The position numbers and the translations under genes are program-made. A DNA stretch of 57,056 nt, filler included, from Jimgerdemannia flammicorona (Eukaryota): NCBI GenBank assembly GCA_003990765.1. It is 3 parts of 3 records of this genome, joined end to end, with 100 filler letters (N's around TTAATTAATTAA, not from the genome) between each part and the next. Parts side by side here need not be neighbours in the genome. Positions count along the whole stretch, not along the records: positions 1 to 18,954 come from RBNJ01002065.1; positions 19,055 to 38,007 come from RBNJ01002066.1; positions 38,108 to 57,056 come from RBNJ01002067.1. The stretch is one strand, 5' to 3'. The stretch's first letter is position 1. Every line of letters starts with the position of its first letter. The notes below the pieces were generated by a model that had not been told where the DNA came from, did not search any database, and saw nothing but the letters and a program-made list of their open reading frames with translations. Positions 11,864 through 53,443 of the stretch are shown here, in pieces.

Positions 11864-13218
11864 TGTAATAGTGATCTCAGAATGGTGACATTATCATAGA
11901 AGACAGCCTTTCCTTACAAGCCACTAGATTAGAATATAAGAAGATCATACAGCATGACTCACCCAGGCTACAAGATGAGTAATGATGACAAATTATGAGT
12001 CATGATGACTATAAGATAGATATCTCAAGAAGTATAAGATAAGGACTAAGAAACTGTAGCAGTAGCAACTCAAACAAGACTTACAAAATCATGCAATAGT
12101 TTGAAAGACTCACTATAAACAAAATTTCTGCTGCTTGCCAAACCTCAAGATCCAGGAATCACCAAGATCTCTCAGTTTAAGAAAAAAAATATTTCAAGAC
12201 ATCAGGAGAGTCATAAGGACCTATACTAAAAGGATCTCTAACCTTAACTTGGGTACTGGTGATCCTTACAACTTTACTCTCTACTGCTATGAAATGGAAA
12301 CAAGGATCACTACTACTACCAAATGCCTATGGATGTAGCAGGAATACAAAATAGGACATCTTCTCTAATAGGAATTCTCTCAGGCCAGTCTCCAAGAAAT
12401 ATAAGATAACACCTCTATAAATGTATATGAATTGAGAGTGGCCAAAAAGATCTATTAGGTCTTCAGATATACATCTTGATCAATCCCCAACTTGGAGTAT
12501 ACCAGAGTCTCAGACTTTAAGAAATTATCAGCTCACTGCACAGATATACTAGAGGCCATGGTTGCCACAGAAGCCCAATCCACTATTACTCTCAAAAGTG
12601 ATAAGGTAGAAGAGTTCTGGAATCTCATTCTCCAGATCAATCCAGATCAAATCCTATAAAGATTAATCTTAGTATTCCAAGGCCCCAGTATTCAGATCAG
12701 ACCTCCTCAAGATCTCACCTTTGTCTCCTACTTTGTAGAAAAAAACATCATAGACTGAAGAGCCTCTGATCTTTATTCCACCACTATTAAATATAATGAT
12801 ATCACTGGTGATAACATTATTCTGCTAATTGACACATATGAAATAAATAAAACAGAAATATTTGCTGACCTTATTTCCTTTGAAGATATTCTATTCCCAA
12901 CCTCTAGTCTTGATGATAGTAATGAAGATAAAGCTCCCAGGATTCTGAACATTCTACTCTAATTTGTTTATATAACTATTTGTTTGAATACTTGAATGTT
13001 CTGATATTCTGACTTCATGCAACTGTCAGAAATTATTCCAGCATTCTGATCTTATACTACCAATTATACAGATACTCAAATTTGTACTTACAATCTGAAG
13101 TTTTCTATGTTCAAGTATCTTATTTAGTTATTGGATTTTATATTTAGCTTTATATCTTAGCAATTATTGAATTATATTTTGTATAAATACCCCTTTTATT
13201 TCACCTTTCTCCTGTACA
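11864..13218 (+). mobile_element. Putative long LTR (element F) containing a decayed ORF, interrupted by LINE copy 2
   Basis: Begins TGTAATAG exactly where the integrase relic breaks. GTATAAATACCCC TATA box at 13181 matches the element C LTR TATA. No internal domains or second LTR are visible. Confidence 0.6.
12091..12962 (+). pseudogene. Accessory ORF of unknown function in element F (~290 codons)
   Basis: One continuous frame from ~12190 to TAA 12960-12962 (..EYKIGHLL..YELRVAKKIY*VFRY..SDFKKLS..SSLDDSNEDKAP). Internal stops are explainable as CAA/CAG/CGA transitions. Probable ATG at 12091 with a slip in an A-run. Confidence 0.6.
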
Positions 13219-13285
13219 ATTCACGTTACACAAAAAACTTCAAGCAATGGTTTTTGACACAACTAGGAGAAAAGGTACTATCAAG

Positions 13286-15303
13286 ATGTCATCGAGCAAG
13301 AGTTCTGACGAGCATACTGGGTCAGGGGGTGCTAGGGCTTTTGGCTGGCAGAAGGTGGGGAGGGGGTATGACCTGGGGATGGGGGCCTTTGGAGGGTCGA
13401 AGGTGGGAGAAAGCGCTGGAGGTGGACCGGTGTCTGGGGGATCTGGAGGAAGGCCTGGTCCCTCCAGCTTTGCTGACAAGGTGAAGGCGGGTGGATGGCC
13501 TACTGGAACAAGGGTTGGTGCTGCTGAGGGGAAGGGCAAGGCTAGTGTCAGGAGGGGGAGTGGCCCTCAGGGGGGAGCAGTGAGCATAGGGGCTGGTGGT
13601 GCTGTGGCTGGGGGTGTGACTGTTGATGGAAGTGTGAGGGGGGATCAGGAAAAAAAAAGAGATGTGACGGCTGATGGCAGGGTGGGGCAAGGGTTCCTGA
13701 TGCAGAAGAGGGACCTGGCCAATGGTGTTACGGGGCTGGCAGTGGCACCATTACTCAAGAAGTCGATCTTGGAGTTTGCAGTGACTCTGTGCTTCTGAGG
13801 CTTAGGAGTGACAGTGAGGATGGTCTTGGGGCTTATCTCGAAGCAGGTGGCTGGGGCAGCTTCAGTGAAATTCCTGAAGGGTCTGGAGGGAGTTGAGGTG
13901 GGCTTCGAGAAGGTGGGCCCACTGGAAGAGGCACTGAGGGCAGGAGTGGCAGTTGGAGAGGTAGTGGTCCCCATGGTACGCTGTTTGAGGTGGGACCCCA
14001 GGGTGGTGCAGCTGCTGGTGAAGGGGGTGCCCACAGTGACGAAGGAGGAGATGAGGAGGAGGGTAGAGGAGGTGATGGCGGAGTATAGAGATGTGGTGGA
14101 TATTGGCTTCCAGGTATGGGAGGGGACGACAATCAGGACTGGCAATGTTGATGTCAGGATTCGGCTGGCAGGGAGGGAGGCCACAGGGAAGACCGGTGAC
14201 TGGCCCTCAGTGTTAATGTGGGGGGCCTTTATTTGTAAGGTGTCGAGGGTGAAGGGGAGTGAGGAGGAGGAGGAGGATTTGTTGGAGGCATTGGAGGAGA
14301 TGAGTGGTGTGGTGGAACAGCAGGCAAAGGCCTGGAAGCTCTTTGAGGAGTCGACGTATTTGGAGATTGTGGAGGGGAAGCATATCCACACTGACAAGAG
14401 GCAGTGGGAGCAGGCTCAGGGGCGCTTGAGGCAGAGGGAGCTCTTGGTGAGTATGACAGAAGGGGAGAAGAGAAAGGTAGATGGGGCTGAAGGGTCTGGA
14501 GGCGTCCAAGCCAGTGTATGGGCTAGCGAAGGTGGAAAGGAACAGAAGAATGGGCTGTGAAGGTACTGGGCAGAGATTCCTATACAGATGGTACTTTCGA
14601 GGTCTGGGAGGAGGAGTCAGATAGTACCCCCCCCCCACTTATCAGGAGGGGTCCAGTGGGGTGGAGAGGGGCAGCGGAAGATATACTGATGAAGGGGGCC
14701 CAGTGGGTTACCTTTGGGGTCCCAGATGTGGCAAAAGGGGGCCAGGTGGTGGCTGTTGGTGAGGATGAGCTGGTGGATGTCCCAGAAGAGGAGTGGAATG
14801 AGGATGCCAGTGTGGGTGCAGATACTACAATGCTGGATGCAGGGTGGCCAGGGACCCCTGGAGGGAAGGAGATTGGGAATCTGCTGTGGATGAGCAAGGT
14901 GATGGATAATCTTGCAGCTGAGGTGTTGGGGGAAGTGGATCTGAGGGTCATGCTGGAGGAGCACTGGGCACAGATTCTGCAAGGTGAGGGAGTGGTGGAG
15001 GTGCTGTAGATGGAGATTCTTATGATACTACTGGAGGAAGAGGGTTATGAGGTGGATGAGGTGTGGAAGGCGGAGCTGGTGGTTATTGTGGGTGAGCAGG
15101 TAGCCTACTGTTGGGCAGAACGCCATGGTTTGTAGTTCTGGCAGGAGGCCTGTAGGGAGTATAAGGAGGACTTTGAGGAGAAAGAGGATGGGGCAATGGT
15201 TGAACTTCTAGAGGGATTGGAGGTACAGGGAGTTGAGAAGAAGGAACTGGCTGCAGAACACAACTTGGATTTGGCACAGGGGGACTTGAGTGCAGATTTG
15301 TAG
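13286..15303 (+). pseudogene. LINE ORF1 (RRM-like core, long acidic C-terminus), with stops and one frameshift
   Basis: ORF-track pieces 13247-13798, 13808-14560 and 14557-15009. RRM-like VVQLLVKGVP..EYRDVVDIGFQVWEGTTIRTGNVDVRI. Copy 1 reads through the 14557 junction in frame. Confidence 0.75.
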
Positions 15304-15334
15304 AGGAGAGGTTTAATCTTTAACAATATTCCTC

Positions 15335-18300
15335 ATGAACAGTACAACTAACATTTTCTCTCTCAATGTGAATGGTCTTCGAGGATCTGTACGGTATAAG
15401 AACATTTTTACTTGGCTAAAGGAATTGGAGGCTGATCTCTTTTTACTGCAGGATGTACAGTATGAGGATGAGGATGATCAGGTGGAATGGACTAGGGAAT
15501 GGGGTGGGGCTATTGCATGGTTTGGAAAGGTGGCGATTCTGTTAAAGAAGGGTAGAGGAGATTTGGAGGGGATCAAGAACTGGGGAGATCGACTGGTCTA
15601 GAGTGAATGGTACCAGCCAGGGTGGGAATCAGTGAGGGTGGGCTCATGCTACTGCCCGGCGGCTAGGGGAGAGAGGATTGCATGGATTAAGGAACTACTG
15701 GAGGAGGGTGTTCTCTTGGAGGAAGGGGTTGATGTTCTTGGTGGTAATTTTAACATGGTTCGAGATTTGCAGTTGGATAGGACTGATGGAGGAAGAAATG
15801 CTGGTGGGAGGAGTGGCAGTCTGGATGCATGGGAGGAGGTGAAGAACCTTAGCTCCTTAGGGGATATGGGCCAAACATGGTGGAGTGACACCAGGGTCTA
15901 CATGCACTGGGTGAATGGCCTAGGGACAAGGATTGACTGGATTCTGACAGCTGAATGTTGGGGTGCTGATGTCTGGAAGACTTTGGAGGTGGTGTGGTGC
16001 CCATGGTCTGATCACTGGGAACTGATTGGGCAGGGGCGGTTTGGGGGGAGTGGAGATGGACCTGGACATTGGTGTCTTAACTCCTCCCTGCTGGCCGAGA
16101 AGGGGTTGTGGGACTCATGGGTAGAGGACATATAGGCAAAGATTCCGTTTTGGAGGCAGGAGGGTTTATCTGTAGGTGTCTGTTGGATGAGATTGAAGGA
16201 GGCTGCGAGGGTTTATTGGGGAGGAGCTGGTAGGGAGGCAGGGAGAAGGAGGAGGCGAATACAGTCTGCCTCCAATAGGCTGAGGAGATTGCAGTTGGAG
16301 TGGGCAGATTTGCTTGCATCTGATGAGATGGAGGATTGGAGGTTAGTGAGAGCAAAATTGGAGGTTGTAGAACTGCATCAGGTGTTGTGAGAGGAGGAGG
16401 AGACTCATATATGAGGTATGGCAGCCAGGCTTAGATGGCAGGGGCTTGAGGAGGGGGAGCAGCCTACTAGGTACTTGTCTAGGCTCCTCAAAGCCAGGCA
16501 GGTGAGGCATAGGTGGGATGGGATCTTGGATGCTGAGGGAGAGTTGGTGCATGGCATGCAGCAGATCCTGGGAGTATTGAAGGAGAATTGGCAGGGTCTG
16601 TGGAGTGAGGAAGAAGGGGGTGCTGATGCAGAGGTGATTGGTGACACACTGGAAGAGTGGGAGCCGCCACAGATAGAGGGGCTGGGTGACTTGACCTTAC
16701 CTGTCCAGGAGGAGGAGATACAAGGTGTCCTGGTAGCAACTAAGCTTGGGATGGTGCCAGGAGAGGATGGGTTACCATGGGACTTCTGGAAGAAGATGGT
16801 GGAAGTCCCAGGGATGCTGGGTGAGATGGTGGCCCTCTGTGACCATGTTCTTCTGAATGGCATGTGGGTTGGTGAGCAGGACTTGGGGCTGGTTGCCCTA
16901 TTGTACAAAGATAAGAGCCGGTGTGAGGATTGGAAGAACTGGAGGCCAATCATGCTGCTGGATATAGATCAGAAGTTGGTAACTAAGGTGATTGTTGCAA
17001 GGCTACAGAAGGTTGCTCAACAGGTGCTGGGAGAGGAGCAGCAGGGCTTTGTAGGTGGTATACTTATCAGAGATGGAACTGCCTGAGTGCATGGCATTAT
17101 TGAAGGAGCCCGGGCCTGTGGACTGGATGGGAGACTGGTTTTTTTGGATCAAGAGAAGGCCTATGACCGTGTTCAGCAGGTTTGGTTGGGCAAGGTACTG
17201 GACAGAATTGGCATTCCGCCACAGTTTTGGGCCTCTATGTTGAGTTTGTTGGAAGGGAGTTGAGCAGTGCTGATGTGTAATGGTTACAGGGGTTTGGCGT
17301 TCCCCTTGGAGAGAGGAGTCCCTCAGGGGCCCTATCCTTTATGCACTCTCCTTGGAACCTTTGATGGACAGGATCTATAAGAGGGTGACTGGGCTCTCTG
17401 TATATGACATGGAGTGGAAGGTGGGGGCCTTTGCAGATGACATGGTAGTTGGACTTGGATCAGTAGTGGATGTAGAGGCTCTTCAGGAAACAGTGGAGTG
17501 GTATGAGGCATACTCTGGAGCAAAGCTCAACTGGCATAAGTGTGAGACAATGGTGCTGAGGAATGGGCTAGTGGCTGGGGATGTCATTGGAACAATTGTC
17601 CCCACAGGAGAGGTGGTGCGGTACCTTGGTATCTTCCTCTCTGTATATGGATCAGTCCTACCACAGATATGGTGGGAGAGGAGGGTGGCCATTTGGGGAG
17701 AGGCTCTAAAAGGCTGGGGGGGTCGTCACATCTCCCTGGCAGAGAGGGTAGCAATTCTGAATGTATACTGGTTCTCCAAGCTGTGGTATGTGGCATATCA
17801 CTTAGACTTTCCTGCTTGGGTGGTGAAGAGGCTGATGAAACTGGCTAGGGATTGGATCTGGGCTGGTAGAAGGGCCCAGATCTGTTGGGATACCCTTGTC
17901 AAGCCAGTGCTTAGGGGAGGCCTGGGCCTTGTGGATTTCCCTAAGCATTTATACTGCCTGCGAGCTTGGTGGTTGTGGAGGGCTGTTGATCTACAGGGTG
18001 GAGGTTGGGTGCCATTGATGAAGAAGGTGTGGGAGATGAGAGTCTCCCCCTGGGGGTCCACAGGGGATCTACTCTCTTTGGTGGGTCTGAATGGAAGCCG
18101 ACAGCTATGGTATAAGGGCTTCTGGTGGGGAGTGGTTGATGGGGCACACCAGATAGGCCTGCACTGGCGTGGAAATGAGGGGGAGGAGGTATGGGGTCCA
18201 GCTATGTGGCGATGGGACTGTCTGCTTCTAGGAGGAGTTCCACTAGCTGAGTTTGACATTGGAGATGGAGTAGAGTGTCAGCAGCGAATTGGCCAGGATC

Positions 18301-18938: not shown

Positions 18939-18954
18939 GGAGGGGTGGGAGGGG

Positions 18955-24888: not shown

Positions 24889-26045
24889 TATCTAAAAACT
24901 TAGCCAGATGATGCAAACATTAGCACAGCATAGTAACCAGCAACTATTGCTGTAGAAAATGTATAAATAACCCAGATAGCTAAAGAAGGGAAAAACCCTG
25001 ACAGTGGCTGTCACTCTGATAGTAGCTATTATTCTGATAGTGGCTGTCACCCTGACAGCAAATGCCACCACATAAATAGCATTTTATAGTTAGCCAGAGA
25101 GCAACCAGATAATAACCACAATATATAAAATACCCCAGAGATAAGAGTGAATAAACCTCAGTTCTGAAATACAAAGCAAAAGACAAGTCTGCCTACTATA
25201 CTTTGAGAGATATGTCTGCTAAAAGTCACTTGATTCAGGAAGGATTGCAATACTTAGAAGAAATGCCTGCTCTACAGCCACTACCAGGAGATTGTGAGCT
25301 TTGCCCCTTTCCCACTCCTGTCCACTTTCTGTTACAAAGAATGAGTCTGTTTTGGTTCGCTTGCCAGATAAGCCCAAAGAATCTGAGTTTGCTGCCCAAG
25401 TTCAAAGAAGAACTTTGCAGTCTTTTGAGTAATCCACTGCTTGAGAAATAAGCTGCCATTTTTAAGTAATCTGCTAGTTTAAATCTGCTGCTCACAAAAG
25501 CCAGTCTATCAGATGCAACTTCACAGTGAATCCATTTGCACAAATAAAGCCAGTCCTTGATATAACTTTGCCAGCCACCATTTAAGAAAGTCTACCACGT
25601 TTTGTCTGCCAATCTACATTATTCTATATCCTGTCCACCAATCTGCCACATTCCGCTGCACCACAACCCATACCATTCAAGTAAACCATACTTAAGAAAC
25701 CCACTACATTTAGTTCACTGTCAGAAAAGGAATCCAATTGCTATCACACCAGTAACCTAATCCCCAGAAGAACCAGCACTTATAAGAAAACCAGCTAAAT
25801 TTGCCATATACAAGATCACCATATCATGCAAATTAGTTTGCTGCCTAAGAAGGAAACCCATTCATACACAAAAGACAAACAATCCAAGAACACCAAATTA
25901 GGAAGTTACATACAAGAATTCTTCAGTTTGAATATATACAATATCTGAACATTTTGTTGCTTTTGATAAAGTAACTGTGGGCTCAAGCCAATCTATACAG
26001 CTGCCCAACCTTGAAATTTGCCTCTATTGAGCCAGGCATATTACA
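24889..26045 (+). repeat. Element B 5' LTR
   Basis: Direct repeat of 32519-33657; ends ..ATTACA. Confidence 0.9.
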
Positions 26046-29100: not shown

Positions 29101-31950
29101 AGGAAGGAAGTACTCCTCCTTCAAGTCAACCACCTCAAGAGAAATGTTCTCCAGTAAGTGTACTGGCAACTAGTCAGACTGTATAAGAATTTTATCCTGG
29201 AGCCCAGAAAACAAACAACCTTTGAGATCTTTGTACCACCTGACTCCAGAAATCTTTTCTTTGAACCTAAGGAAGATATTCCCCACCTGGATATAGAGGG
29301 ACACACATTTCTTGACAAAATGAACCCAGTACATTTCCAAGTAACCAATCAAAGTTGGGAAACCATCACCTTGCTGAAAGGAACCATCATAAGACACCTG
29401 GTACCATTCCTCAACCAAACTCATAGGGAAGTTTATGAACTAAATCTATCAGGAAACAGCAAAAGGTCCCAGAAGAAAGGAAAGACACCTCTGCGACCCA
29501 GAAGACAGTGAAGCCTTCCACCAATATTGGAGAAGAATTGATACCCCCAGCAATAGCAATAATTAGCAGAACTCCTCAACAAGTATTAAGATATGTATCT
29601 TCACTACCAATTATGACAACCTATCATACAATCCATCAATCACCATAGTATAAATATAGGAAATGCAACACCCATCTGGCAGAAATCCTATAGAATACCC
29701 CATTACTTGAAGACCTTCAAAAAGGAGCACATTCAAGAACTCTTAGACAATAGAGTCATCTGACCCTCTACCAGCCCCTGGGCCAGCCCTATACTTATCA
29801 TACCAAAGAAGAGAGGATGGAGACTCTGTGTGGATTACAGGAAACTCAATTCAGTCACTGAAAAAGATGCCTATCCTTTGCCCAGAATCGATAACCTTTT
29901 GAATCAGTTACAAGATGCTAGATACTTCAGCAGTATGGATCTTTTTGCAGGATTTCATAAGATCTCCATGGACCCAAAAGACATTCAAAAGACAGTCTTC
30001 CTTGCTCTAGGAAAACTGTTTGAATACCTCCAAATGTCCTTTGGACTTTGCAATACACCCCCCACCTTTCAGAGGATGACGAATTCAGTCTATGCTCCCT
30101 TGATCCACTACTACCTGATTGTATATATGGATAATTCCAACATCTATTCAGCAAATTTCGAAGAACACCTGCACCACCTAGAGGAATTCTTCAAGCTCAC
30201 CTGTAAGAACTACTTGAGGCTGAATGCAAAGAAATGCTACATTGGAAAACAGAAACTCAAATTCCTTGGATTCATAGTTTTAAAAGAAGAAACTCACACA
30301 GACCCAAAGAAAACTGAGAAGATCAACAATTGGTCAGTACCTAAGACCCCAAAGGAAACACTATCATTCCTGATACTAGTATCCTACTACAGAAGATTTA
30401 TCAAGGATTTTACCCAAATTTCTGCCCCAATCTGGATCCTTCTCAAGAAAGAAGTACTATTTAAATAGACAGAATCACAAGAAAAAGCCTTTAAAGAACT
30501 CAAGAACTGCATGACTATAGCACCAATCCTTGTGCACCCCAATCTACAGAAGCCATTCATCTTGTATACAGATGCTTCTAAAGATGGTCTCAGAGCAGTC
30601 CTAGTCTAGGAAAGACCTGACCAACAATACCATATGATAGCTTATATAAGCAGAGCTACCAATCAGCAGCAGATAAACTATGGTAGCACCAAACTGGAAT
30701 ATCTTGCAGTCATATGGGCAGTCACTCTGTTCAAGTATTACCTAATTAGAAAAAGATTTACTCTGATTACAGATTATGCAGCTCTCAAATAGTTATTCAA
30801 CTACAAGAAACCCACCAGAATCCTAGCCTGCTAGATTCTTATCCTTCAGGATTACATAATCACCATCATCCACAAAGTAGAGAAAGCCCACAACAATGTT
30901 GATGTACTTTCCCACCAATCTCAATGAACCAGAAGAAGGGTGTCCCAAGGAACTATACTCTAAAGGAGGCTCCTCAGACCATCAGAAAGCCCACCAAGAA
31001 CAGATAAGTACAGAAGACAAGATTTGAAAACTGTATCAACACTGGCCCTATCTCAGAACCCAAGTCTGAGATATCATCCAGAAATGTAACACTTGCCAGA
31101 AGTACTAAGAAAAGAAGAACTATCAAACCCCTTTGTAACCAATTCCCCCACCCACTTATATCTTTCAGAGATGCAGAGTAGATGTAATAGGACCCCTGCC
31201 AATAATACTAAAATGAAACAGATATATTCTAGTATTTGTTAAACACTTGACCAAATGGCCCAAAGCATACCCTATGGAGATTACAGATGCCCTTTCCATC
31301 GTTGGGCATTTTTATAACCTCACCCTCTGATATAGACCCCCTGAAGAACTCATCTCTAATAGAGGAACTGAATTTGTGAATAATATAATCTCAAGTTATG
31401 CACGAATTCATGGGATTCATCTGAAATGAACTACCTCTTATCATCTTCAAACTAATGGAATGACTGAAAGAATGAACCAGACTATCAAGAAAGGACTTGC
31501 CCAAGTCAACTCCACCAATTGGGATCTCTGCCTATCTGAGATCCTATGAGAAATCTGAAATACCCCTACTCCATTAACTAAACAAAAGCTCTACAAAATG
31601 ATATTTATCAAAAAGACCAGAACTGCTGACCATGAGAACCTCGGAAAGCTTTTTGAAAAAGGAGATCAGCTGTAAAATAAAGCCTGAATTCAGATTATTA
31701 AGGCCCAGAAAAGACAAAAGAAGTATTATAACCAGAAACAGAAGGATCAGAAGATCAAGATTGATGATCAAGTCCTAGTTTAGAGAAGCATGATAGAAAT
31801 AAACTTTGCTGCTAAACTGGAACCAAAATGGAAAGGACCATACCTTGTACACAACATCAGAGGAACTAGCATCTATATAAGAAGCATGGATGGATGTATC
31901 TTGAGAACTCCAGTCCACATCAATCGCCTCAAGATATACTTACACAAACT

Positions 31951-32445
31951 ATGACTCAGAGGATAGATCAATGTCTCCAGACCCTCATCCTCAGCTCTTT
32001 CTAAGCCCTGCCAATTCTCCTGCTCCAGTTTTGCTAACTTGAAAGAACCCCCATACAATTGATTCAGAAGTATCAAGAGAACCTTGCTATTGCTCAGAAG
32101 TTGCTTCAGATCTACCATCTACAAGTCTTCTACAACATTGGCAGCTATTGATAGAACAACCTTAAATAAAAGAGCCCAGCCAGAATTACTCTCAGAGAAG
32201 TAAGAACTACCAAATAAATCTACACCCTATACAAACAAAATGTTAGAGCCCTGGTGTAGTCTCACTTCTACCTCAATGATATTCATCAGATAAATGAGAC
32301 CATCTTTCAGAGTATTCTTCAACAAGTAGACATCCTGTTTCCTGAAGAACAAAAAGAAGATCCAGAGCAAGAATGGAGTGACCCAGATACAGATAATAAA
32401 GATAATGGAACAGACATAGATGCAGAAGATGCTTATGCTTATTAG
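31951..32445 (+). pseudogene. Element B ORF3 of unknown function (164 codons) between integrase and PPT
   Basis: ATG 31951-31953 overlaps the integrase TGA 31952-31954. Single frame to TAG 32443-32445, internal stops only of transition type, acidic tail EEQKEDPEQEWSDPDTDNKD. Confidence 0.7.
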
Positions 32446-32496
32446 AATGATAACTAAAGAATAGCCTGGGACAGACTACCCTTTAGTGGGGGCTGA

Positions 32497-38107: not shown

Positions 38108-38124
38108 AAAAAAAAAAAAAACCC

Positions 38125-38153
<29 letters not shown>

Positions 38154-38155
<2 letters not shown>

Positions 38156-41343: not shown

Positions 41344-42547
41344 TCCGGTTTCGAATGTCTGATATGCTGCAAAATGGATGGTATTAAGCGTAAAAGTTTG
41401 TAGGATCCAGAACGCGAATTGTAGGAAGGGTGGTGAGTTTGGGTTAAGAACGGTCGCCGCCTTTTCTTTTTATTCTTTTTTTTTTTTTTTTGGTGTCATC
41501 CTATTCACCGATATTAATTCCAAGGCGTCGGTTGATATATACAATTATGACTAGTATGATTGTTGTCAAACACGAAAAATATCCGTGATTCCGCGCCCTG
41601 GATCTGTCTGATTGTAACGTGACTGCCAAAGAGTCCCGTATATCCGCGCCCTTTGTCTCCGTTCGGTGCGGCGCATCTATAAACCTCAAAAATTTTGAAG
41701 AAATAGTACATAAAAAAACAAATATATATTAAAAATCTAACTCTATAAAATGATTCTCTGATTGATTTACTACAATGTAATAGAGCCAGAATTTTCATTT
41801 AATTTTTTTTCTAATTAATTTTTTATTATTATATTGAGTCAGATTATGGCGCCAGTCACATACTCCTTAAAAAGGAAATCACCATATAAATTTTATAATA
41901 CTATATAAATTTTATAATACTAAATTTTATAAATGAACAGATGCCGACAGATAGATAGCCCCTTTCTCTACTACTATACTGGTTACAAGGTTTTGGTAAA
42001 TAACCTTCTGGGTCCTCTTTTCTCTGCTTTTACTCCCTCTATCTCAGATTGGTTTACTATACCTATAAGAATATAGTAAAAGAGAGGTAATAGTGATGAG
42101 TTGCTCTTTTATCATTATCAGATCAGTGTCTTCTCTACTTTTTTATAGTTTCTAGTATCTCTGGCTTTATCTGCAGTATATCTATTTTGGTATGATATCT
42201 TCTTTTTTTTGCTATTATCAATAAGATATTATTTTAGTATATTATAGATTATATAGAGAGTTAGTTGACCTTAGATATTAAGTATTAGTATAGATTATCT
42301 ATAGATCCTTGATATTTGTAGTGAGACTCTCTGAGCTTTAGCAAGCTTCTTAGTAAGTATAGTTCTGATATAGGTGACTGTCTCTTGAGTGGAGTTAGAA
42401 TAAAACAAGAGATGACTATTATAAATAAGTAAAAGAGTAATTATAGTAAACTAGTTGAGTGCTAGACTGGTGATAGTTATTAGAACTGAGACAGATGCTG
42501 TATTAATAGAGTCTTCTGATTAGTACAGAGTAGTTATATAATAAGTA

Positions 42548-44595
42548 TATAAGAGGGTTATTTAAAAGTACTATTACTTAGTTCTGGAAGAGTTTTCTGG
42601 AAGTTCTAGATATTCTGGAAGACTGTTTTCTTAAAGTTAAAATCAATTTTATATAGAGTATATTCTCTATACTTATTGATTTTTAGATTAGATTAATGTC
42701 TTAACCAAAGTCCTTTTTCGGACTAGTTCTGGATGTTCAGGATTTATCATATTTCAGAAGTTTAAAAAACTAAGACTAGCTTAGTTAAATTAGCATATTG
42801 CTGCAGATAATATCTAATTAAAAAATTTTATAATATAGTTAGAAGTAGGATCTAACAGGGTATAAATTTACTTAAGAGTAGTTTGTGAGTTATTAATTAG
42901 ATTTATTTGCTATTTATGATATTACTATACTAGGAGTAGTTATATAAAAAGGTATTATGAAGAAATATTCAGGAGTTCTTATATTCAGATTGTTTAAGTC
43001 TGAGTTTCTGAGATCTGAAGGAGGGGATATTTATACTAATGGAAGGCTATCTAGACTATGCTAAATATAGATATAGTACTTAGTATCTTACTGAGTTAGA
43101 ATATAGTCACATAGTATAATTGTAAACTGAAATGTCAAGAGATCATCTGATTGCTGAGTCAGTATATAGTTATATTATATAATATTAATTTAACTATACT
43201 AATGATTATTAAGCTATCTATAGATTTAGATATTATCTAGATAGTCTTTAGTGATATTACTATCAATGACATCATCTCTGATAAAATAATTATCTAGGAA
43301 GAGTGATTCTTAGATTACTTTTCTCTGTTTACTCAGATAATAATATACATATTAGAATTATATCACTATCCTATAGAATAGTATTATCTATTTTATATAC
43401 TAGATATAGAGTTGGTAGGTGAAAGAGAGATATATTATCTTTACTTTCATCAGATTCACTGTCTGCATACCTTCTATAGGTTACAGCACTATATATTGCT
43501 AGATTGTAGTAAGCTAGTGGCTATTCTTTATATTACTTATACTCAGATAGTAGAGTTGTTAGTTTAATTTTAAGGATTGTCTGGAGATATAAATTGTGTT
43601 CTCTGGTCTCTTCATTGTAGTTGAAGTAGTTGGACATAAATATAGGTTAGTACTCAAACCAGTGGTCATTATCTCAATAGGTCTTGTAGATGATTATAAA
43701 CTATTATAAGTTTATTAATAAGATTGGTAGAGTAATCAGAGCTGGCAGAAATTCTTAGCTGGAGATCATATTGGTATCAGAGAGATTGTTATCTTCTACT
43801 TTATCATTATTGAACTAGATTATATTATAGATATTCTTTATGATATATCCAACTTGAGATATTTATAGAATATAGTCATCAGAGTATGAGAAGATTCTGT
43901 CTATAGTTTGAATATACTTAATATACTTGTGGTTGAGTTCTTATACCATATCATCAATTTGGCTATAGGACAGAGTAGCAATCATTTTAGTAGTAGTAAT
44001 TTAGAGATAGAGAATAAAGATACTGTACTTATAGAAGAGATCTCAGTATTTATGAGTGATAAGTTTCTAGTGTTGAGATATCTGGATAATATCTATATCA
44101 TAGTAGTATTTGATCATATCTTTTAGGAGGTGATCAATCTGATAGTAGCTTGAGATTTATCTAATTTAGTAGACTTTACTGAGTATGTTCAGGGTATTTC
44201 ATCAGGCTTCTATAAAGTAGAGATATCAGACTATAGATATTCATAAGAAACAAGAGAGAGATAGCTTGGTTGACAATAATATTCCAAATATCAGTATAGA
44301 TACAGTTGTAGATCTCAGTAGTTATGATTATATATATGTTTAAAAGTTGTAGTTATTTGTTTGATTCATTATAGTTCTCTGTTTCAATATATCTAAGTAC
44401 TCAGAATATATATATTTAGTTCTGATTGATAAGATTCTGTTTATATAAATCTTATATTCTGTACTTCAAGTTGACTCAGCTTTATGCTCTGTAACTTTAG
44501 TTCAACTCAGCTTTGTGATCTTGTATGTGATTTCTAGATTTATTTAGAGGGTGATATATATGTGATTTTGATAGCTTAGAGATTGTATACTTACA
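42548..44595 (-). repeat. Element C 3' LTR (~2.05 kb)
   Basis: Aligns end to end with 51086-54858 once two insertions are removed; TATA at ~43021-43037. Confidence 0.92.
43226..44369 (-). pseudogene. Accessory ORF (~380 codons) inside U3 of the element C LTR; second copy in the 5' LTR
   Basis: ATG at 44369. The two-copy consensus reads MNQTNN..LYFVKVRWNSLNILSEVYQIEQISSYYQIGHLLEDM..KYRDLFYKYSIFI..SESDESKDNAP..; many stops and some frameshifts. Confidence 0.6.
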
Positions 44596-47500
44596 ACTCT
44601 CTCCTTTTTAGCTTTTGATATTCTTGTTGAGGTCTTCTAATTTTGGTCTAGTATTGTTACACTATTTGAATGATCAAAAGTCTGGTAATGTTCATTTTTC
44701 TCAGAAAGTAGCATGCTTATAGTACAGTTACCTAATATATTAGATTTATATATTAAAGGATCATATATTTGATACTATATACCAGAAGTGATTCTGACAT
44801 TATTTACTGCTAGAGAATTTCCTCTAAGGAATCTCCTTAAATATCTATACCCCATTTTTTACCAGTAGTATAAAGAGAATAGACTGGCTTTCAGTTTTGC
44901 TATTTCTCTAAAGGATCAGTATTCTTTTATTTTATCTTTGCTGAGTTTTTGATTTCATTTATGATAATTATAAAAGTACTTAATATTCAGAAGTAGTAGT
45001 ATATAGTATAGAACTGATAGGTGTTGGAGTATTCAGTTTTCAGTTATTCAAAGAATTATATTCTTAAACTAAGTCCATGGCATTCTAGAGGTTAGTCTTG
45101 GGTTCCTATATTGTATTATAAATTAAATAATCTTTCTATTTGACAAGATATTCTGGATGGTTTTTGTTATTATATTTGTTGAGAATTTGTTCAACTTTAT
45201 ATTCTTCTTAATCATTAATAATAACAGATATAGATAGTTCTATAGTTTGGTTCAGAAATAGCTCATTATCATTTTCATTATATTGCTTAAGATATTGGAT
45301 ATTGAAGACTGAGTGAATCTTGATAGTGTCTGATAGTACCAATTTGTAGAAAGTTGGAGAGACTTATGTGATAACTTCAAATGGTCTAATAAATTTACTA
45401 TTCAGTTTCATAGATGGTCTGTACTTAAGGTTGTCAACTCAGTATCCTCAGATATCTAATAGAACTTTTTCTTTTATATCAAAAGTTTCTTCTTAGTAGT
45501 GCTGGTTGATATATTATAATTGTTATTCTTGAGCTTAGGATAAATTCTTGATTGTAATCTGACTTAAGTTATATATTCAGAGTAGGAATTCTTCAACAGC
45601 TTCAATAGTAGAGAGTTCATTAGTAGTTCAGATAAGTATCAGAGGGGTGTTTAGGTTTTGTTCTATATTGATGAAGAATAGGGTCATTCTAAGAGAGGCT
45701 TGCTTGCTATTATTGTAGGCAAACTCAACTGTGGTGAGGTATTTATGCCAATTATCTTATCTATAGAAAATATAGTTCCTTAGTATTTGTTCTAGAGTTC
45801 AGTTCATTCTTTCAGTTTGATCATCAGTTTTGGGGTAAAAAACTGTAGATAGTACAAGTTTCATTCAAAGGTATATATAAAGAACTTTCTAAAAACAGCT
45901 GGTAAATTTTGGGTCTTGGTCACTAATAATGATCTTGAGAAAACCATAATAGTAAAAGATATTATCAAACAAGAGTGTGGTTATATCTGGTACTATAGTG
46001 GTAGTAGTAGTTGATACAAAATAAGCCTATTTGCTAAGATAGTCTATGAAGATAATAATTATATCTTTTCTATTTTTGATTTGGGATAGTTATATAATGA
46101 AGTCTATAGAAATTAATTCCCAATTAGTAGATAGTACTAGAATAGGGTAGAGTAGACCAAGTTTTACTAGTGTTGAGAACTTATTGCATTAGCAGGTATC
46201 ACAGAAAGTAATATAAGTCTTTAGCTGATCTATCATGCAGAGCTAATAGAAGTTTTGAGAAATAACTTTATAGTATTTATTAAATCCTAGATGTTTGACT
46301 ATAGGGACATCATGATATTCAAATAGAATAGTTTTTTGGATATCTTGATTGTTTGGAACATACAATCTATTCTTATAGTAGATAGCATTATTCTTTAGTT
46401 GGTATTAGTAATACTAGATATACTTATTAATATTATTACTGTTCAGAATTTCTCAGAGTATCTGAGCTTCTTTATTATCAATATATGTTATAATGATTTA
46501 TTCCATAATAGAGTTAGTAACCAAGGTGAGAGTTTGGATAACTTCTTTAATTAGTGGTCTGAAAATTGCATCAGCAACAATATTCTCCTTACTAGATTGA
46601 TACTGGATTTTATAGTCAAAGTTGGTGAGAACTTTCACTCATCTAGCTTGCTTTTGAAAAAGGGTAGCCTGGGTCTTAATATTGACTAATAATTTGTAGT
46701 CTGTTAAAATAATGAAATGTAATCCTTCAAGATATAGTTGCCATTTAATCAGAGTATCTATAATAGCTAATATTTCTTTCTTGTGGATTACATAGTTGAT
46801 TTCAGCATTATTAAACTTACAGAAATGATAGGCCACAGGGTGTCCTTCATACATAAGTACTGCTCCAAGAGCTAGGTCAGAGGCATTAGTAATAACTTCA
46901 TAAGATAGGGCAGAGTTTGCTGCTTGAAGTACTAGAGTAGTTATCAAGATATCTTTTAGTACTTGAAAGACTATATCTTGTTCAGGTCTCCAATTTACAA
47001 GATTATTGAAGTCTTTTTCTTATTTTGTAGTTCAAGATTATTCTTCTTTTTTGCTGTACTTAGTCATTTGAGTAAGAGCAGTAGTGATCTTAGTGAAGTT
47101 AGCAATAAATTGTCAGTAATAGTTTGCTAGTCCTAGGAATAACTGGAGGTCCTTCAACTTCTTGAATCTGGGCCATTTCTTGATTACAGAGATTTTGCTG
47201 GAGTCCACTTTTATTTTATTAAAAGTAATAATATATCTAAGGAATTGGATTTCCTTCAAGTGAAATTCACATTTATTGAGTTTTACAAAGAGTTAGTTTT
47301 CTTGAAGCTTCAGTAGTACTAGTTTAAAATGTTCAAGATATTCCTCCAGAGTTTTTCTGAAGACTAAGATACATATCATCAATGTAAACAATAATAAATT
47401 TGTCTAGATATGAGTATAGGATAGTATTCATCAGTATCTGGAAGATTGTATGAGTATTAGTTAAGCTAAAAGATATAACCAAGAACTCGAAATATCCATA

Positions 47501-48679
47501 GTAAGTTTGAAAGACTGTCTTATAGATGTCTTTTTCTTTTATGACAATTTGTTAGTAACTATTTCACAGATCAAAAGAGCTCATAAATTGTGAGTTGATA
47601 AGCCTATCAAATATTTCATCAATTTAGAGTAGTGGATAATAGTTCTTGATGGTCTGTTTATTGAGGTCTTGATAATCAATATATATTTATAGGTCTCCTT
47701 CTTTCTTGACAATAAAGAGGACTAATATACTATAGAGTAATAGACTAGATCTAATAAATTCTTATTCTAGGAGTTCATCAATCTCTTTCTTAAGTATATT
47801 GATTTTCTTAGAAGATATATAGTAAATTGACTTAAAGACAGGCTTGGTATCTGAAATAGTCTTGATGATATAATCTACTACTCATTTAGATGATAGGTCT
47901 TCCAGGAGTTTCTTTGGGAATATGTCTCAGAATTTCTGGAGTAATGGTCTGATATGGCTGTCAATTGTAAAAAAGTCTTCTTCAAGATTTTCAGGTTCTT
48001 CTTTGGATAGACAGATAGAGATAGTAAAGAGAGAGCATTTCTTGGCCAATTTCTTGAGTTATAGCTTATTGATGTGAGTGATCCTTGGTCTGGGATCACT
48101 AGAACTGAGTAGGTCCTTTTCACCTTGTAGTTTGAAATTGTAGCATCCTTTCTTGATGATCAAAGAATAGTTTACCCAGTCAATCATAGGGTTCCAAGGA
48201 TGATTTCATTGTCAGAAAGTAGTATGATCTAGAGTATAATATATTTGATAGTTATTAATTTAGAAGAGTAAGTTGAAGACTTCTTTGCTAATAATATATA
48301 AGATTTCATCAGCTATAGCAACTGCTTGAGTTTATTGTACTGGAGAGGTTAAGACCTTGAGTCTGTTGGCTATTTCTTCATTGATAAAGTTGCCTGAGGC
48401 ACCACTATTTATCATAATCTTAACAGATACTTAGTTGACAAAAGCTTGGAGTGTAAGTAGTTTGTCTGATCCAATAGTAGTGATTTTAGTTAAAAGAGCT
48501 TTTCTTCTATTGGTTCTCCTTTAGGCCAGTTCATTGACACAAAAGAAGCAATTGTTGATTATTTAGAAAGAGTACATTTCAATATCATGAGGGTATTAGC
48601 CACTTGGTACAAATCTATCTTCAATTTTCTTATAGAATTGTTCTTTTTTATTTGTAGTAGGTTGGGCTGGGGTCTTGTT

Positions 48680-49040
48680 TGATGAGTCAAATCCTTTGGA
48701 TCCTCAGATAGTAGGCAGTAGTTTAGAGACTTTCTTGACTATCAGAGTTGATTTAATTTTCTTAAATAGAATCTGAGTAATACAAAATCCAATAGAGATC
48801 TTGAATAGTATCTAGCTATAGTTTTGGATGAGGATAATAATTTTGCCTATATTATCTTCATCAATGACTCCTCCTTCTACTGAAAGTTCTTTCAATACTA
48901 GGCTACTGTAACAGTATACATATTCTTCTAATATATTCTTCAGGAATTTGAATGCTAATTCCTATATAGACTTACTTAACTTCTTGGTTGGAAACTATAG
49001 CTTCTTCAGTTGTATATAGATCATATATAGCTGCTTTTTG
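48680..49040 (-). pseudogene. dUTPase domain of element C, upstream of the protease
   Basis: AAIYDLYTTE (motif I)..GISIQIPE..SSLVLKELSVEGGVIDEDNIGKI..ITQILF..*GSKGFDSS; lies between the gag zinc knuckle (~49200) and the protease (~48400). Confidence 0.85.
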
Positions 49041-52000
49041 ACTTCCTTTAGTTGGGGCCTTAGCAGTTTGCCTTAATTTAACAAAATTCAATATTTTGGT
49101 AGTTAGATTATTGAGATGGTGCAGGGTAGTAACAGTTGCTCATATTGCTGTTCAGGGTTTTTAGTTAAAGTAGACACTAACTATATATTCTGTCTTTTAG
49201 ATAGAAGTATGTTCCACTTCTTCAGAGTTAGTTTCTTTCTCCTTCAGTGAGTTTCTTAAAGATACTTGGCTAGATGAGTTCAGAATTTTGGGGTATCTAA
49301 GAGGTAGATATAAAGAGAGCTCAAGATACTTCATGCTTAGGTTCTTCTTTCTTAGTCCAAGTTTTTTTTTTATTATTGAATTGTCTTTGAGGTAGAATTG
49401 GTCTTGATTCTTACCAGGCACTATTATTGGTGATTGCAACCAACTGAGTGTTTTTATTTTTGGATTTTTCTTGTAAGCTATTCAGATAGTACATTGAATA
49501 AATGATCTGCTCTTATACTATTTCATACTTCATCATGGCAATGTATCTTAGACCAATAGTATTTAGGAGTAACTCAAGTTTTATATAGAAGATTTCAAAT
49601 TCCTTCTTGCCATATATATCAAATTTGAGATTATAGAGTTTAACTCAAGATTCAGCAATCAGAGTTTTGCTACAATATTGAGTAATCATAAATTGTTTGA
49701 GTCCAAGGGCTACAGAATAGTCTCTATATTCTGGGGCATTATTTGCTGTATTTTGAGTAATGACTGTAGGTCAGATATCTCTGTAAGGAGTTTTTCAGAA
49801 AGAGTTTGCATTATTCTTCAGCAGGTCCTCAGAAGAATGTAACAACTTGGTGAACATAAGTTAGGGTAATAGAAAAAGAGTTATTCCAGAGTGTGATCTT
49901 AATTGTTTATTAGAAAGTAATCAGCAGCTCATTCATTGGTCTATTGGTTGGCTTTGAAATTGATATCAACTATACTAATGAAGTTTTGAACTTCTTGTAT
50001 AGTATCATTGAAGATAGGTAGGCTCAGACTTTTTGTTGATTGAGTCTGTTTAGCTAAGATAGTAATGGTTGCTATCATTATAACTACCTGAGCTATAAGG
50101 TCTAGAATCTGTTGATTTGCCATATTATTTACTAAAGGTGGTTGGACTACTGATAGTAGTATTATTGATATAACTTGAGATACTAATACAGAGTATAATA
50201 GTGTTCTTTGAGTCTGTATAAGTTGCTGAAGTAATTGTTGTAAGTCTGGAGTAAGGGCTTGATAAATAGCTATCTATTGCTATATAGGTATGTTTTGTTC
50301 TGATAGAGATGTATCTCTTTCAGTAGTATATTTAGGATCAAATTCACTAAGATACTCCTTCTCTTCTTTGCTGTAGTCCCCATGTAGTTGAGTTTGCTCA
50401 ATATTGAAGTAGATAGTATTAGTTATATATTGGATTTCAGATGAGCTTAATTCAAAAGCTGGTTCTGGTTCAGTATTGATTTCAGTTTCAGATAGAGCTA
50501 TAGCTAGGCCTGCTTCTGGTTCAGGATCAGGTTGTTGACAAAGGGTTTCTCTTACTTCTTCCTTAAGAATATAATAGGCCTTATAATTCTAGAAGTAGTT
50601 ATATAAGACAGTCTTAGTTCTAGTACAGTAATACTCAGTAGAGTTGAGCTACTTAGCTACTAAGGCTTAGGCTTTGTGAGAAACTAAGGCTAGAAAGACT
50701 ACTGCTGGTTATCCTAGGTTGTTCAGATTTGTAGAGCTGACAAAACTCTTATTAAGAAGAGTAAAGAAAGTTTCTATAAGACCTTCTTCATCTTGACTTG
50801 TAAGGTATAGAGTAAGAAGTTTAGTATATAGAATTTTACCTATCTGCTGATTTAATTAGAGTACTTTTTTTTGTAAATAAAGTCTGTCTCACTTATTATA
50901 GGTGTGGAGATCAAATTGTCCTTATATATCAGGTTCAATTCTCTTCAGATTATCAGATGGTTTGGAATGAATTTTAATTCAGAGGTTGGTCTTTATATCA
51001 ACTTATAGAAATTTTTATAGAGATTTGTAATAGAGAGAGAAAGTATTTTGAAGTAGAATTGAATTATAAATTACTGCTACTAAGTTGTAAGAGAATTACT
51101 TATAAAAGTACTATTACTTAATTCTGGAAGAGTTTTCTGAAACTTCTAGATATTCTGAAAGACTGTTTTCTTAAGATCAAGATCAATTTTATATAGAATA
51201 TATTCTCTATACTTATTGATTTCTAGATCAGGTTGATATCTCAACCAAAGTTCTTTTTCAGACTAGTTCTGGATGTTCAGAATTTTTCATATTTTGGAAG
51301 TTTAAGAAACTAAGACCAGCTTAGTTGAATCAGCATTTTACTGCAGACAATACTTAATTAGAAAATTTCATAATATAGTTAGGAGTAAGACCTAACAGAG
51401 TGTAGATTTACTTAAGAGTAGTTTGTGGGTTATTAAATAGATTTATTTATTATTTATGATATTATTATACTAAGAGTAGTTGTGTGAAAGAGTATTGTGG
51501 AGAAGTGTTTAAGAGTTCTTATATATTTAGATTATTTAAGTCTGAGTTTCTGAGGTCTAGAAGAGGGGGTATTTATACTAATAGGAGACTATCTAGACTA
51601 TATTAAATATAGATATAGCACTTAGTACCTTACTGAGTTGGAATATAGTCACATAGTATAATTGTGAACTAACATATCAAGAGATCATCTGACTGCTGAG
51701 TTAGTATACAGTTATATTATATAATGCTAATCTAACTATACTAATGACTACTAAACTATCTATAGATTTAGATACTATCTGAGTAGTCTTCAATGACATT
51801 ACTATCAATGATATCATCTCTGATAAAGTAGTTGTCTAGGAAGAGTAGTTCTTGGATTATTTCTCTCTGTTTACTTAGGTAATAATATATTGGAATTATA
51901 TCACTATTTTATAGGATAGCATCATCTATTTCATATACTAGATATAGAGTTGGTAGGCAAAGGAGAGGTGCATTATCTTTGCTTTCATCAGATTCACTAT

Positions 52001-52449
52001 CTGTATACTTTTTATAGGTTATATATATTACTATATATATATTGCTGAGTTATAGTAAGCTGATAACTATTCTTCATGTTACTTGTACTTGGGTAATATA
52101 GTTATTAGTTCAATCTCAAGAGTTGTCTGGAGATATAGGTTGTATTCTCCAATCTCTTCATTGTAGTTGAAGTAGTCAGATATAAATATGAGTTAGTACT
52201 CATATTAGTGGTCATTATCTCAATAGGTCTCATAAGTGATTATGAACTGTTGTAAGTTTATTAGTAAGGTTGGCAGAGTGATCAGGACTAGTAGGGATCT
52301 TTGGCTGAAGATTATATCAGTATCAGAGAGATTATTATCTTCTGCTTTATCATTATCAAACTAGATTATATTATAGATATCCTTTATGATATATCTAACT
52401 TGAGATATTTATAGGATATAGTCATCAGAGTATAGAAAGGTTCTGTCTG

Positions 52450-52898
52450 GGGAGCATTTGAGAGTAGTGTATAGGGGATATAGTATGTGGGGCCAGTGGG
52501 AGGACTTGAGGGATAGACTGGTGGGGGGGGGGTGAGAAAGAAGTAGCTTATATTAGATTGAGTTCTGGCAATTTAGGTGGAGTTGGCAGGTTACTGGTTA
52601 TTTGTTTTTAAAGGTAGGAGGTGACTAAGCTTGGGGGATTGGCTGCTGTGCTGGCATAGACTTGTAGAAGACACCCTGACAGACTGGTGGCTTGGTTGGG
52701 AATTGCAGAGTAGGCAAAGGCATCACTTAGTAGAGAAGATTTGTGGGCAGAGTGGAGGTAGAGTGAGAGTGATAGGTGCAAAGGTAGCTTTTATTGATAA
52801 TGATGCAGGGGGAGGTTCCTCTATGAGGATCAGGTAGTGGAAGGCAATATTATAAACTTACTTTATAGAATAGTAATAAATGGTAAAGTCCAAGTAAC

Positions 52899-52936
<38 letters not shown>

Positions 52937-52938
52937 AG
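52450..52938 (+). mobile_element. 5'-truncated LINE 3' end with poly(A)
   Basis: WLLCWHRLVEDTLTDWWLGW..HLVEKICGQSGG matches the ORF2 C-terminus. Poly(A) 52902-52934. TSD AAGGTTCTGTCTG (52437-52449 / 52939-52951). Empty site in the other LTR near 43890. Confidence 0.93.
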
Positions 52939-53402
52939 AAGGTTCTGTCTGTAGTTTGAATGTACTTGATATACTTATGGTTGAGTTGTTATACTATATT
53001 GTTAATTTGGTCATAAGATGAAGTAGTAATCATTTCAGTAGTAGTAACTCAGAGATAGTAAATAAATATGCTATACTTATAGAAGAGTTCTCAGTATTTG
53101 CAAATAATGAGTTTCTGATATTGAGACATTTGAGTAATATCTGTGTTATGGTAGTGTTCAACTATATCTTCCAGAAGGTGGCTGATTTAGTAGTAACTTG
53201 AGATTTGTTCAATTTAGTAGACTTCACTAAGTATGTTCAGGGAATTCCATCAGACTTTCACAAAGTAGAGAGATATCAGGCTATGAATATTTATAAGAGG
53301 TAGAGGAGGAGTAACTCAGTTGACAATAGTATTTCAAATATCAGCATAGATGTAGTTGTAAATCTCAGTAGTCATAGTTGTATATATTTAAGAGTTGTGG
53401 TT

Positions 53403-53406
<4 letters not shown>

Positions 53407-53443
<37 letters not shown>

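What the first reader, a model, noticed from the sequence alone, without database searches (positions are those of the whole stretch)
12091..53200. Shared unannotated accessory protein family in three different LTR retrotransposons
Seen: three decayed ORFs outside gag-pol align by eye. F (12340-12550): EYKIGHLL..YELRVAKKIY*VFRY..IPNLEYTRVSDFKKLS. C LTR consensus (44148-43960; 53194-53010): YYQIGHLL..QKLI..KYRDLFYKYSIFI.YL.VTTTEMIATLS; the Gly is recovered from GAT in one LTR and AGC in the other. B ORF3 (32125-32310): FYNIGSY..REVRTTK*IYTLYK..FYLNDIHQIN. All have acidic C-terminal tracts (F SSLDDSNEDKAP; C SESDESKDNAP). Carriers B and C differ in pol domain order and chromodomain. Inference: a mobile, probably helical accessory module exchanged among gypsy lineages. 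It could be a transactivator or silencing antagonist in a genome that erodes TEs heavily. It shows no env-like TM or furin signature that I could see.
Basis: partly seen in the sequence, partly recalled or inferred. Interest (0 to 1): 0.8.

Follow-up and report, generated by a model that had tools for sequence, protein, structure and literature searches.

The report
Shared accessory gene of Gypsy retrotransposons
Three very different jumping-gene families in this probably fungal DNA carry decayed copies of one unnamed extra gene, placed either right after the polymerase gene or inside the terminal repeat with a promoter-like signal of its own, and it appears to have been swapped between families.

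Summary
Confirmed. F, B and C are dead copies of real genes: each family has one frame without fixed stops across 30 copies, and stop-free relatives exist in the genome and in metagenomes. Direct pairwise profile matches are weak (F–C not significant). The shared part is a soluble helical core of about 110 aa with no Pfam, PDB or fold match and no env traits. Carriers share only 36–43% RT identity. F's closest ORF relative (F2, 34–37% over its whole length) sits in a chromodomain element while F's carrier has none, which supports module exchange. B and G couple the ORF to the integrase stop; F, F2 and C carry it in U3 behind a conserved TATA, so a solo LTR could be a complete gene. Function is untested; best guess is an HTH-like regulator of the LTR (about 40%). 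This scan has noted the same family in other windows of this genome (10 notes seen).

The parts
11864..13202 (+). Family F LTR, cut at its 3' end by a LINE (full length 1.6-1.8 kb in other copies); inserted in an integrase remnant of another element
   Evidence: 26-29 of 29 other copies align from bin 11850 to bin 13150 and none outside; LTR pairs 7.3-7.4 kb apart around dUTPase-RT-RH-IN in C157 and L223
12033..12039 (+). TATA-like box upstream of the F ORF (one base changed in this copy)
   Evidence: TATAAAA in 27 of 30 eroded copies; TATAWAW 86-87 nt before the conserved ATG in 9 of 9 young F copies long enough and 72-73 nt before it in 7 of 7 F2 copies
12124..12962 (+). F accessory ORF (about 275 codons), dead in this copy; shared core about 12333-12600, acidic tail to 12938
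   Evidence: leave-F-out profile scores 12339-12536 at 23.8 bits against reversed-decoy maximum 8.7
13182..13188 (+). Main TATA of the F LTR, downstream of the ORF, placing the ORF in U3
   Evidence: seen in sequence; young F LTR has TATA at 1313 and AATAAA at 1340 of 1774
24889..26045 (+). Family B 5' LTR (aligned extent)
   Evidence: 84% identical to 32519-33657
29764..31954 (+). Family B pol: RT, RNase H, integrase without chromodomain
   Evidence: RVT_1 E 6.5e-28; tblastn maps
31951..31954 (+). ATGA overlap: ORF3 start codon overlapping the integrase stop
   Evidence: ATGA in 24 of 30 eroded copies (ATAA in 6) and 19 of 19 young B-like copies with a matched start; same junction in metagenome locus L221
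31951..32457 (+). B accessory ORF3 (168 codons) between integrase and the polypurine tract, dead in this copy
   Evidence: 8 database relatives at 53-86% identity
32519..33657 (+). Family B 3' LTR (aligned extent; TG start at about 32496)
42539..44640 (-). Family C 3' LTR, about 2.1 kb
   Evidence: 22-29 of 29 other copies align from bin 44600 to bin 42600
43229..44325 (-). C accessory ORF in U3 of the 3' LTR (about 365 codons), dead in this copy; shared core about 44213-43920
   Evidence: 16 stop-free copies of 351-410 aa among fetched loci
44400..44414 (-). TATA-like box about 75-80 nt upstream of the C ORF start
   Evidence: TATA[AT]A in 14 of 15 young and 26 of 30 eroded copies; background 3 of 75 windows
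45046..50009 (-). Family C gag-pol: gag, dUTPase, protease, RT, RNase H, integrase, SH3, chromodomain
   Evidence: Pfam on read-through frames: chromo E 0.009 and protease E 0.002 are below cut-off, SH3_Tf2-1 E 1.8e-11; map
51771..53375 (-). Second copy of the C ORF in the 5' LTR, split by an insertion of about 490 bp at 52449-52933

Best explanation
SHOWN: B, F and C are eroded copies of one accessory gene family of Ty3/gypsy LTR retrotransposons. The shared unit is a soluble, all-helical core of about 110 aa: a long helix ending in Y-x-I/L-G-x-x-L, two helices joined by a short turn ending in A-K/x-R/K-I-x-x-I/L-F/Y, then short helices, followed by family-specific, mostly acidic tails. It sits at the 3' end of the element RNA, either fused stop-to-start to integrase (B, G) or in U3 behind its own conserved TATA (F, F2, C). 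It has moved between chromovirus and non-chromovirus backbones at least once. INFERRED: B and G make it by termination-reinitiation, while F, F2 and C make it from a short U3 transcript ending at the LTR's own poly(A) signal, so solo LTRs could express it. MOST LIKELY MECHANISM (inferred, untested): the central helices form a ParB/DUF3102-like helix-turn-helix that binds DNA in the element's LTR and keeps the LTR transcribed, as a transactivator or by holding off the methylation that erodes repeats here. The confidence given is for this mechanism; confidence in the shared gene family itself is about 0.9, and in at least one exchange about 0.75.
Confidence: 0.4

Rival explanations
1. RNA-binding helper of the genomic RNA (nuclear export or packaging), like CERV, Rev or Rem: the helical core oligomerises on the element's RNA.
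For: Small, soluble and helical, with a long N-terminal helix. Translational coupling to pol in B and G would make it together with Pol from the genomic RNA. CERV shows that a Ty3/gypsy element can encode such a protein (PMC10309623, abstract).
Confidence: 0.22
2. Self-limiting or competition factor: the protein restricts its own or rival LTR elements (copy-number control or interference), which would make an LTR-borne, solo-LTR-expressed copy useful and worth capturing by other lineages.
For: Many co-occurring, mutually nested families in this genome. The gene travels with the LTR and changes backbone.
Against: No direct evidence. The carriers reached high numbers (first-look candidates 6386 for F, 4495 for C, 2528 for G; these are not copy numbers).
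Confidence: 0.15
3. Antagonist of host silencing that acts through protein contacts (for example on RNAi or methylation machinery), not through DNA binding.
For: Strong repeat-specific CpG loss; fast divergence of the protein relative to pol (cores barely alignable where RT is 67.5% identical, F versus G); acidic low-complexity tails.
Against: No known suppressor domain was matched; copies carrying the gene are still eroded.
Confidence: 0.13
4. The families are unrelated small helical ORFs, and the similarity, especially for C, is convergence of amphipathic helices.
For: Pairwise profile probabilities are low (B-C P 4, F-C P 0.4). Reversed C scores up to 22 against 25.6 observed for the B+distant profile.
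Against: All matches fall in one register around the same Y-x-I-G motif. The leave-C-out profile scores 17 of 17 C proteins at a median of 18.9 bits against a decoy maximum of 6.4. Same genomic position, and TATA spacing shared with F and F2.
Confidence: 0.07
5. Env-like or membrane protein for cell-to-cell spread.
For: B and G occupy the env position between pol and the 3' LTR.
Against: Highest 19-residue hydropathy is 0.03-0.91 in five representatives; an R-x-K/R-R site in only 1 of 5, near the N terminus; 0-4 Cys.
Confidence: 0.02

Closest known systems
Sense additional ORFs (aORF) between pol and the 3' LTR (PMC7264820: abstract and section 4 read)
   Same: Position and orientation of B and G; present in most copies of a family
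   Different: No transmembrane segment; the same family also lies wholly inside U3 in other carriers
'add. ORF' of unknown function in fungal Gypsy elements (PMC2864245: passages seen, figure legend only; supplements not read)
   Same: Extra ORF in fungal Gypsy elements, some with dUTPase in varying places
   Different: No sequence was compared, so it is open whether any of those ORFs belongs to this family
ORF3 types shared between diverse bdelloid rotifer retroelements (PMC5408684: passages read)
   Same: One accessory ORF type shared by unrelated LTR lineages, some with dUTPase; modular exchange
   Different: Those are GDSL esterases, DEDDy nucleases, env, TM or coiled-coil ORFs; this family matched none of these in Pfam
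MMTV sag (title of Gunzburg 1993 seen in the reference list of PMC2723071; abstract passage on multiple promoters; the rest recalled)
   Same: ORF inside the LTR with a promoter of its own in the LTR
   Different: Sag is a membrane superantigen (recalled); no sequence likeness was tested or expected; here the host is probably a fungus
CERV of C. elegans Cer1 (PMC10309623: abstract read)
   Same: Non-env accessory protein of a Ty3/gypsy element that may regulate its expression
   Different: CERV comes from a spliced mRNA and exports genomic RNA; no sequence comparison was made
VANC anti-silencing proteins of VANDAL transposons (PMC5735166, PMC10398659: search listing and start of abstracts)
   Same: Model for a transposon-encoded, sequence-specific protector against DNA methylation
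   Different: DNA transposons of plants; no homology found; no target motif found in these LTRs
ParB/Spo0J central DNA-binding domain; DUF3102, DUF1016_N (YhcG) and LmbU-type proteins (likeness of motif recalled)
   Same: Helix ending in I/L-G-x-x-L followed by a helix-turn-helix and short helices; weak structural rows on model 55-134

Membership tests
Ty3/gypsy LTR retrotransposon (carriers B, C, F, G) | LTR pair around gag-pol with RT-RH-IN order | tested here: met
Chromovirus (C, F2 carrier) | Chromodomain at the integrase C terminus | tested here: met
   C: Chromo E 0.009 (below cut-off) with SH3_Tf2-1 E 1.8e-11. F2: chromodomain motif read by eye in L149, integrase groups with C at 100/100; F2's RT was not sampled
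Conserved additional ORF (aORF) | Present in most copies of a family, in sense orientation 3' of pol | tested here: met
   29 of 29 other B copies align across the ORF; one open frame per family
Conserved additional ORF (aORF) | Purifying selection | tested here: met
   B and C clear, G fair, F weak after masking transitions; sets chosen by protein search
Env or env-like ORF | Transmembrane segment, furin site, cysteine-rich ectodomain | tested here: not met
   five representatives
ParB/KorB-type HTH domain | HTH fold with structural match above background | tested here: inconclusive
DUF3102 (PF11300) / DUF1016_N (PF17761) | Profile match above the curated cut-off | tested here: not met
   no listing at E up to 10 for 8 intact proteins; 0 first-look candidates in the genome; remote homology is not excluded
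LTR transactivator or anti-silencing protein (Tas, VANC type) | Binds the element's own DNA and raises its transcription or lowers its methylation | not testable with these tools
   needs binding and reporter assays
RNA export factor (CERV, Rev type) | Binds genomic RNA and is needed for its export | not testable with these tools
   no arginine-rich stretch seen
LTR-encoded gene with own promoter (MMTV sag arrangement) | ORF wholly in U3 with a promoter upstream of it inside the LTR | tested here: inconclusive
   position and conserved TATA shown; a transcript start was not shown
Termination-reinitiation coupling | Overlapping or adjacent stop and start codons | tested here: met
   ATGA in B; in G the integrase stop lies 8 nt after the ATG in 11 of 11 copies; pattern as described in PMC10275272 (passages read)
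Termination-reinitiation coupling | RNA element next to the overlap and coupled translation | not tested
   no folding or translation data gathered

The most novel reading that the evidence does not exclude
Fungal Gypsy elements carry a portable regulator with a prokaryote-type (ParB/DUF3102-like) helix-turn-helix. In several lineages it has moved into U3 with its own promoter, so that each of thousands of solo LTRs is a complete, expressible gene acting in trans to keep related LTRs active against methylation. The whole LTR-gene cassette is traded between chromoviruses and non-chromoviruses.
Probability: 0.2. Interest if true: 0.85.

Novelty: new variant of a known kind. Interest (0 to 1): 0.55.

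Why it matters
Fungal LTR retrotransposons are usually modelled as gag-pol only, and LTRs as non-coding. Here one unnamed protein family is kept by at least five element families whose RTs are as little as 36% identical, uses two different expression routes, and has changed backbone. If it is a regulator, it would be a retroviral-style accessory gene in Metaviridae and a candidate explanation of how such elements multiplied in a genome that strips CpG from repeats. Intact copies make it directly testable. If U3 copies are transcribed, solo LTRs in such genomes are genes and are mis-annotated as inert.

Full report
Setting. The window comes from a 231-Mb, 35,354-contig genome and is mostly nested retroelements: Ty3/gypsy, a copia remnant and LINEs. 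The B, C and F elements have CpG observed/expected of 0.00-0.05 (the LINE 0.19) against 1.0-1.3 in two gene-like stretches, which points to methylation-driven decay of repeats. That the host is a fungus is my inference from this pattern and from the element types; I did not test it.

The observation. All quoted motifs are at or next to the stated places. I fetched the 30 best DNA matches for each locus (of 40, 40 and 42 listed) and counted stop codons per alignment column. Each family has one sense frame with no fixed stop over the region: F 12100-12960, B 31951-32455, and C from about 44450 to 43373, with the true C end at about 43229. Stops inside these frames are polymorphic and nearly all one transition from a sense codon. 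None of these 90 copies is stop-free over the whole ORF (best: one stop in a B copy). Their private transversions fall about evenly on the three codon positions (F 47/55/41, B 16/19/20, C 35/35/48), so the window copies and their nearest kin are dead. Protein searches of the genome found younger copies. Among fetched loci, 14 F proteins of 238-301 aa, 16 C proteins of 351-410 aa and 20 B-like proteins are stop-free; the B-like ones belong to sister subfamilies. Databases hold 8 relatives of B (53-86% identity), 5 of F (60-70%) and 1 of C (50%), none named other than 'hypothetical'.

Are the three related? On eroded copies alone, no: the best HHalign probability is 6. On stop-free sets, direct comparisons remain weak: B-F P 10.7 (1 of 25 block shuffles reached it), B-C P 4 (0 of 25), F-C P 0.4 (10 of 25). 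Bridges change this. The B profile found two distant database proteins, P0023 and P0024, among 1.84 billion (E 2e-5 and 5e-4). P0024, searched blind in the genome, returned B-like ORFs and a second F-like family, F2. A B-core profile with these two proteins and no F or C sequence, run over 842 kb in six frames, hit 71 of 78 F places (top 21.9 bits) and 54 of 69 C places (top 16.8), against a reversed-decoy maximum of 9.5. Some places overlap and some hits lie below the decoy maximum. Its best hit outside known families was a fourth family, G, of 153 aa with many stop-free copies. Leave-one-family-out profiles gave F P 93.9 (E 1.6e-7), G P 90, C P 30.5 (E 5e-4) and B P 97, with 0 of 30 block shuffles reaching any of them. 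The B and G values are partly circular, because P0023, P0024 and G were found through B, and the F target includes F2. The non-circular results are the leave-C-out test (17 of 17 C proteins, median 18.9 bits, decoy maximum 6.4) and the window's own F locus at 23.8 bits with the leave-F-out profile (decoy maximum 8.7). F plus C against B gives P 37 and E 3.6e-4, 0 of 30. I put the homology of B, F and G at above 0.9 and of C at about 0.85.

Selection. Among stop-free copies, dN/dS is 0.11 between B subfamilies (dS 1.4), 0.13-0.16 in C for all but one pair, 0.04-0.25 in G and 0.16-0.34 in F. After dropping codons with transitions the pN/pS ratios are 0.36 (B), 0.12-0.16 (C), 0.14-0.33 (G) and 0.74-0.79 (F, few sites). 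These sets were picked by protein search, which lowers dN, and transition bias raises dS. In the DNA-picked sets, shared transversions favour third positions in C (4/2/15), weakly in B (2/4/6) and not in F (6/7/7). Conservation of F with F2 over their whole length is the better evidence for F.

Anatomy of the carriers. B has a 1.16-kb LTR, and its ORF lies between integrase and the polypurine tract, with the ATG overlapping the integrase stop (ATGA in 24 of 30 eroded and 19 of 19 young copies). Two named metagenome contigs show the same place after integrase, one with ATGA. G has a 470-bp LTR, and its ORF starts 8 nt before the integrase stop in 11 of 11 copies. Such overlaps are the signature of termination-reinitiation (PMC10275272, passages read); coupling itself was not tested. 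In F and C the ORF lies wholly in a long LTR (1.6-1.8 and 2.1 kb); in F the LTR's main TATA and AATAAA lie downstream of it. A second TATA precedes the ORF: 86-87 nt before the ATG in 9 of 9 young F copies long enough, 72-73 nt in 7 of 7 F2 copies, at window position 12033 in 27 of 30 eroded F copies, and 50-110 nt before the ATG in 14 of 15 young C copies, 13 of them at 72-80 nt. The C background is 3 of 75 windows. F and F2 LTRs share almost no DNA similarity, so the matched spacing is notable. Of F loci, 12 of 30 eroded and 14 of 20 young ones show no adjoining internal sequence; short contigs account for some. I infer that a U3 promoter, the ORF and the LTR poly(A) signal make a complete gene in a solo LTR. 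No transcript evidence was obtained.

Exchange. RT identities are B-F 43%, B-G 42%, B-C 38%, C-F 36% and F-G 67.5%; F and G are sisters at 98/98. F2 is linked to a chromodomain integrase in two loci that align over 1,782 nt at 94.6%, and that integrase groups with C at 100/100, apart from B, F and G (with a long-branch warning). Yet F's nearest ORF is F2 (37% in the core, 34% behind it, E 1e-16), not G. In ORF-core trees F+F2 has 96/97 support with all 16 rows and 98/99 with the two distant proteins left out. AU tests give p 0.109 (F2+C) and 0.082 (F+G) with them, and 0.006 and 0.041 without them. One swap of the ORF, probably with its LTR, between a chromovirus and a non-chromovirus explains this best. 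Ancient duplication with differential loss is not excluded, F2's RT was not sampled, and no F2 LTR pair was seen.

Mechanism. I commit to an HTH-like DNA-binding regulator that keeps the LTR active (0.40). The rivals are an RNA export or packaging helper (0.22), a self-limiting or competition factor (0.15), a protein-level silencing antagonist (0.13), convergence (0.07) and env (0.02). Shown: gene family, positions, junction and TATA signals, lack of env traits, discordant trees. Inferred: the expression routes, the HTH, the target and the effect.

Comparison and novelty. Extra ORFs in LTR elements are known in plants (PMC7264820, abstract and section 4), in bdelloid rotifers, where types are shared across lineages (PMC5408684, passages), and as unnamed 'add. 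ORF' in fungal Gypsy elements (PMC2864245, passages; supplements not read and may bear on this). An LTR ORF with its own promoter is known from MMTV (reference title in PMC2723071). Regulators of the kinds proposed are CERV (PMC10309623, abstract) and VANC (listings). Five searches listed no description of this family, in a library that lacks most subscription papers. Earlier notes of this scan report the same family from other windows of this genome (9 distinct notes listed below, 10 listings); these are unchecked AI notes and not independent support. Verdict: a real, undescribed accessory protein family; a new variant of a known kind; interest 0.55.

Noticed in passing
window 7146-11005 (-) and 23409-24581 / 33738-36173 (+): Two remnants of the G-type carrier (gag-PR-dUTPase-RT; 79% and 67% DNA identity to L226). 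The first is cut by a LINE, the second has element B nested inside it. Neither shows the G ORF.
   Followed up: partly
window 11224-11843 (-): Integrase remnant 38-56% like B's, into which the F LTR has inserted.
   Followed up: no
window 13203-18938 (+) and about 2900-7150 (-): Two related G+C-rich LINEs in opposite orientation (endonuclease and RT hits in the first; inverted repeats) with strong GC skew.
   Followed up: no
window 20620-21867 (-): Copia-type gag-pol remnant (Pol_BBD, gag_pre-integrs, Retrotran_gag_2).
   Followed up: no
window 52449-52933 and 53411-54614: Two insertions in the C 5' LTR; the first is G+C-rich, begins with a poly(T) run on the minus strand and has no other copy in the window.
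   Followed up: partly
window 34190-34790 and 36511-37128: A duplicated element holding a palindrome of about 200-nt arms with a 60-68 nt spacer, MITE-like.
   Followed up: no
window 1651-2091 (+) and 39254-39799 (-): Likely host gene pieces: 5'-nucleotidase C-terminal domain (E 9e-4) and cytochrome P450 (E 1e-9), with normal CpG content.
   Followed up: no
L156:1544-2916: Two B-like ORFs back to back in opposite orientation with no pol domain hit nearby.
   Followed up: no
L223:7477-7521 and L226:8290-8335: F and G carriers share a near-identical polypurine tract yet have unlike LTRs (1774 versus 470 bp), which fits an LTR swap.
   Followed up: partly
L202:1409-1867: G residues 85-145 score E 8e-5 to tryptophan 2,3-dioxygenase (TIGR03036), far below its cut-off; no other family member does.
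   Followed up: no
window 19463-19726 and 37714-37865: Tandem arrays of 33-nt and 19-nt units; the second lies next to a B-like LTR piece at 37870-37940.
   Followed up: no
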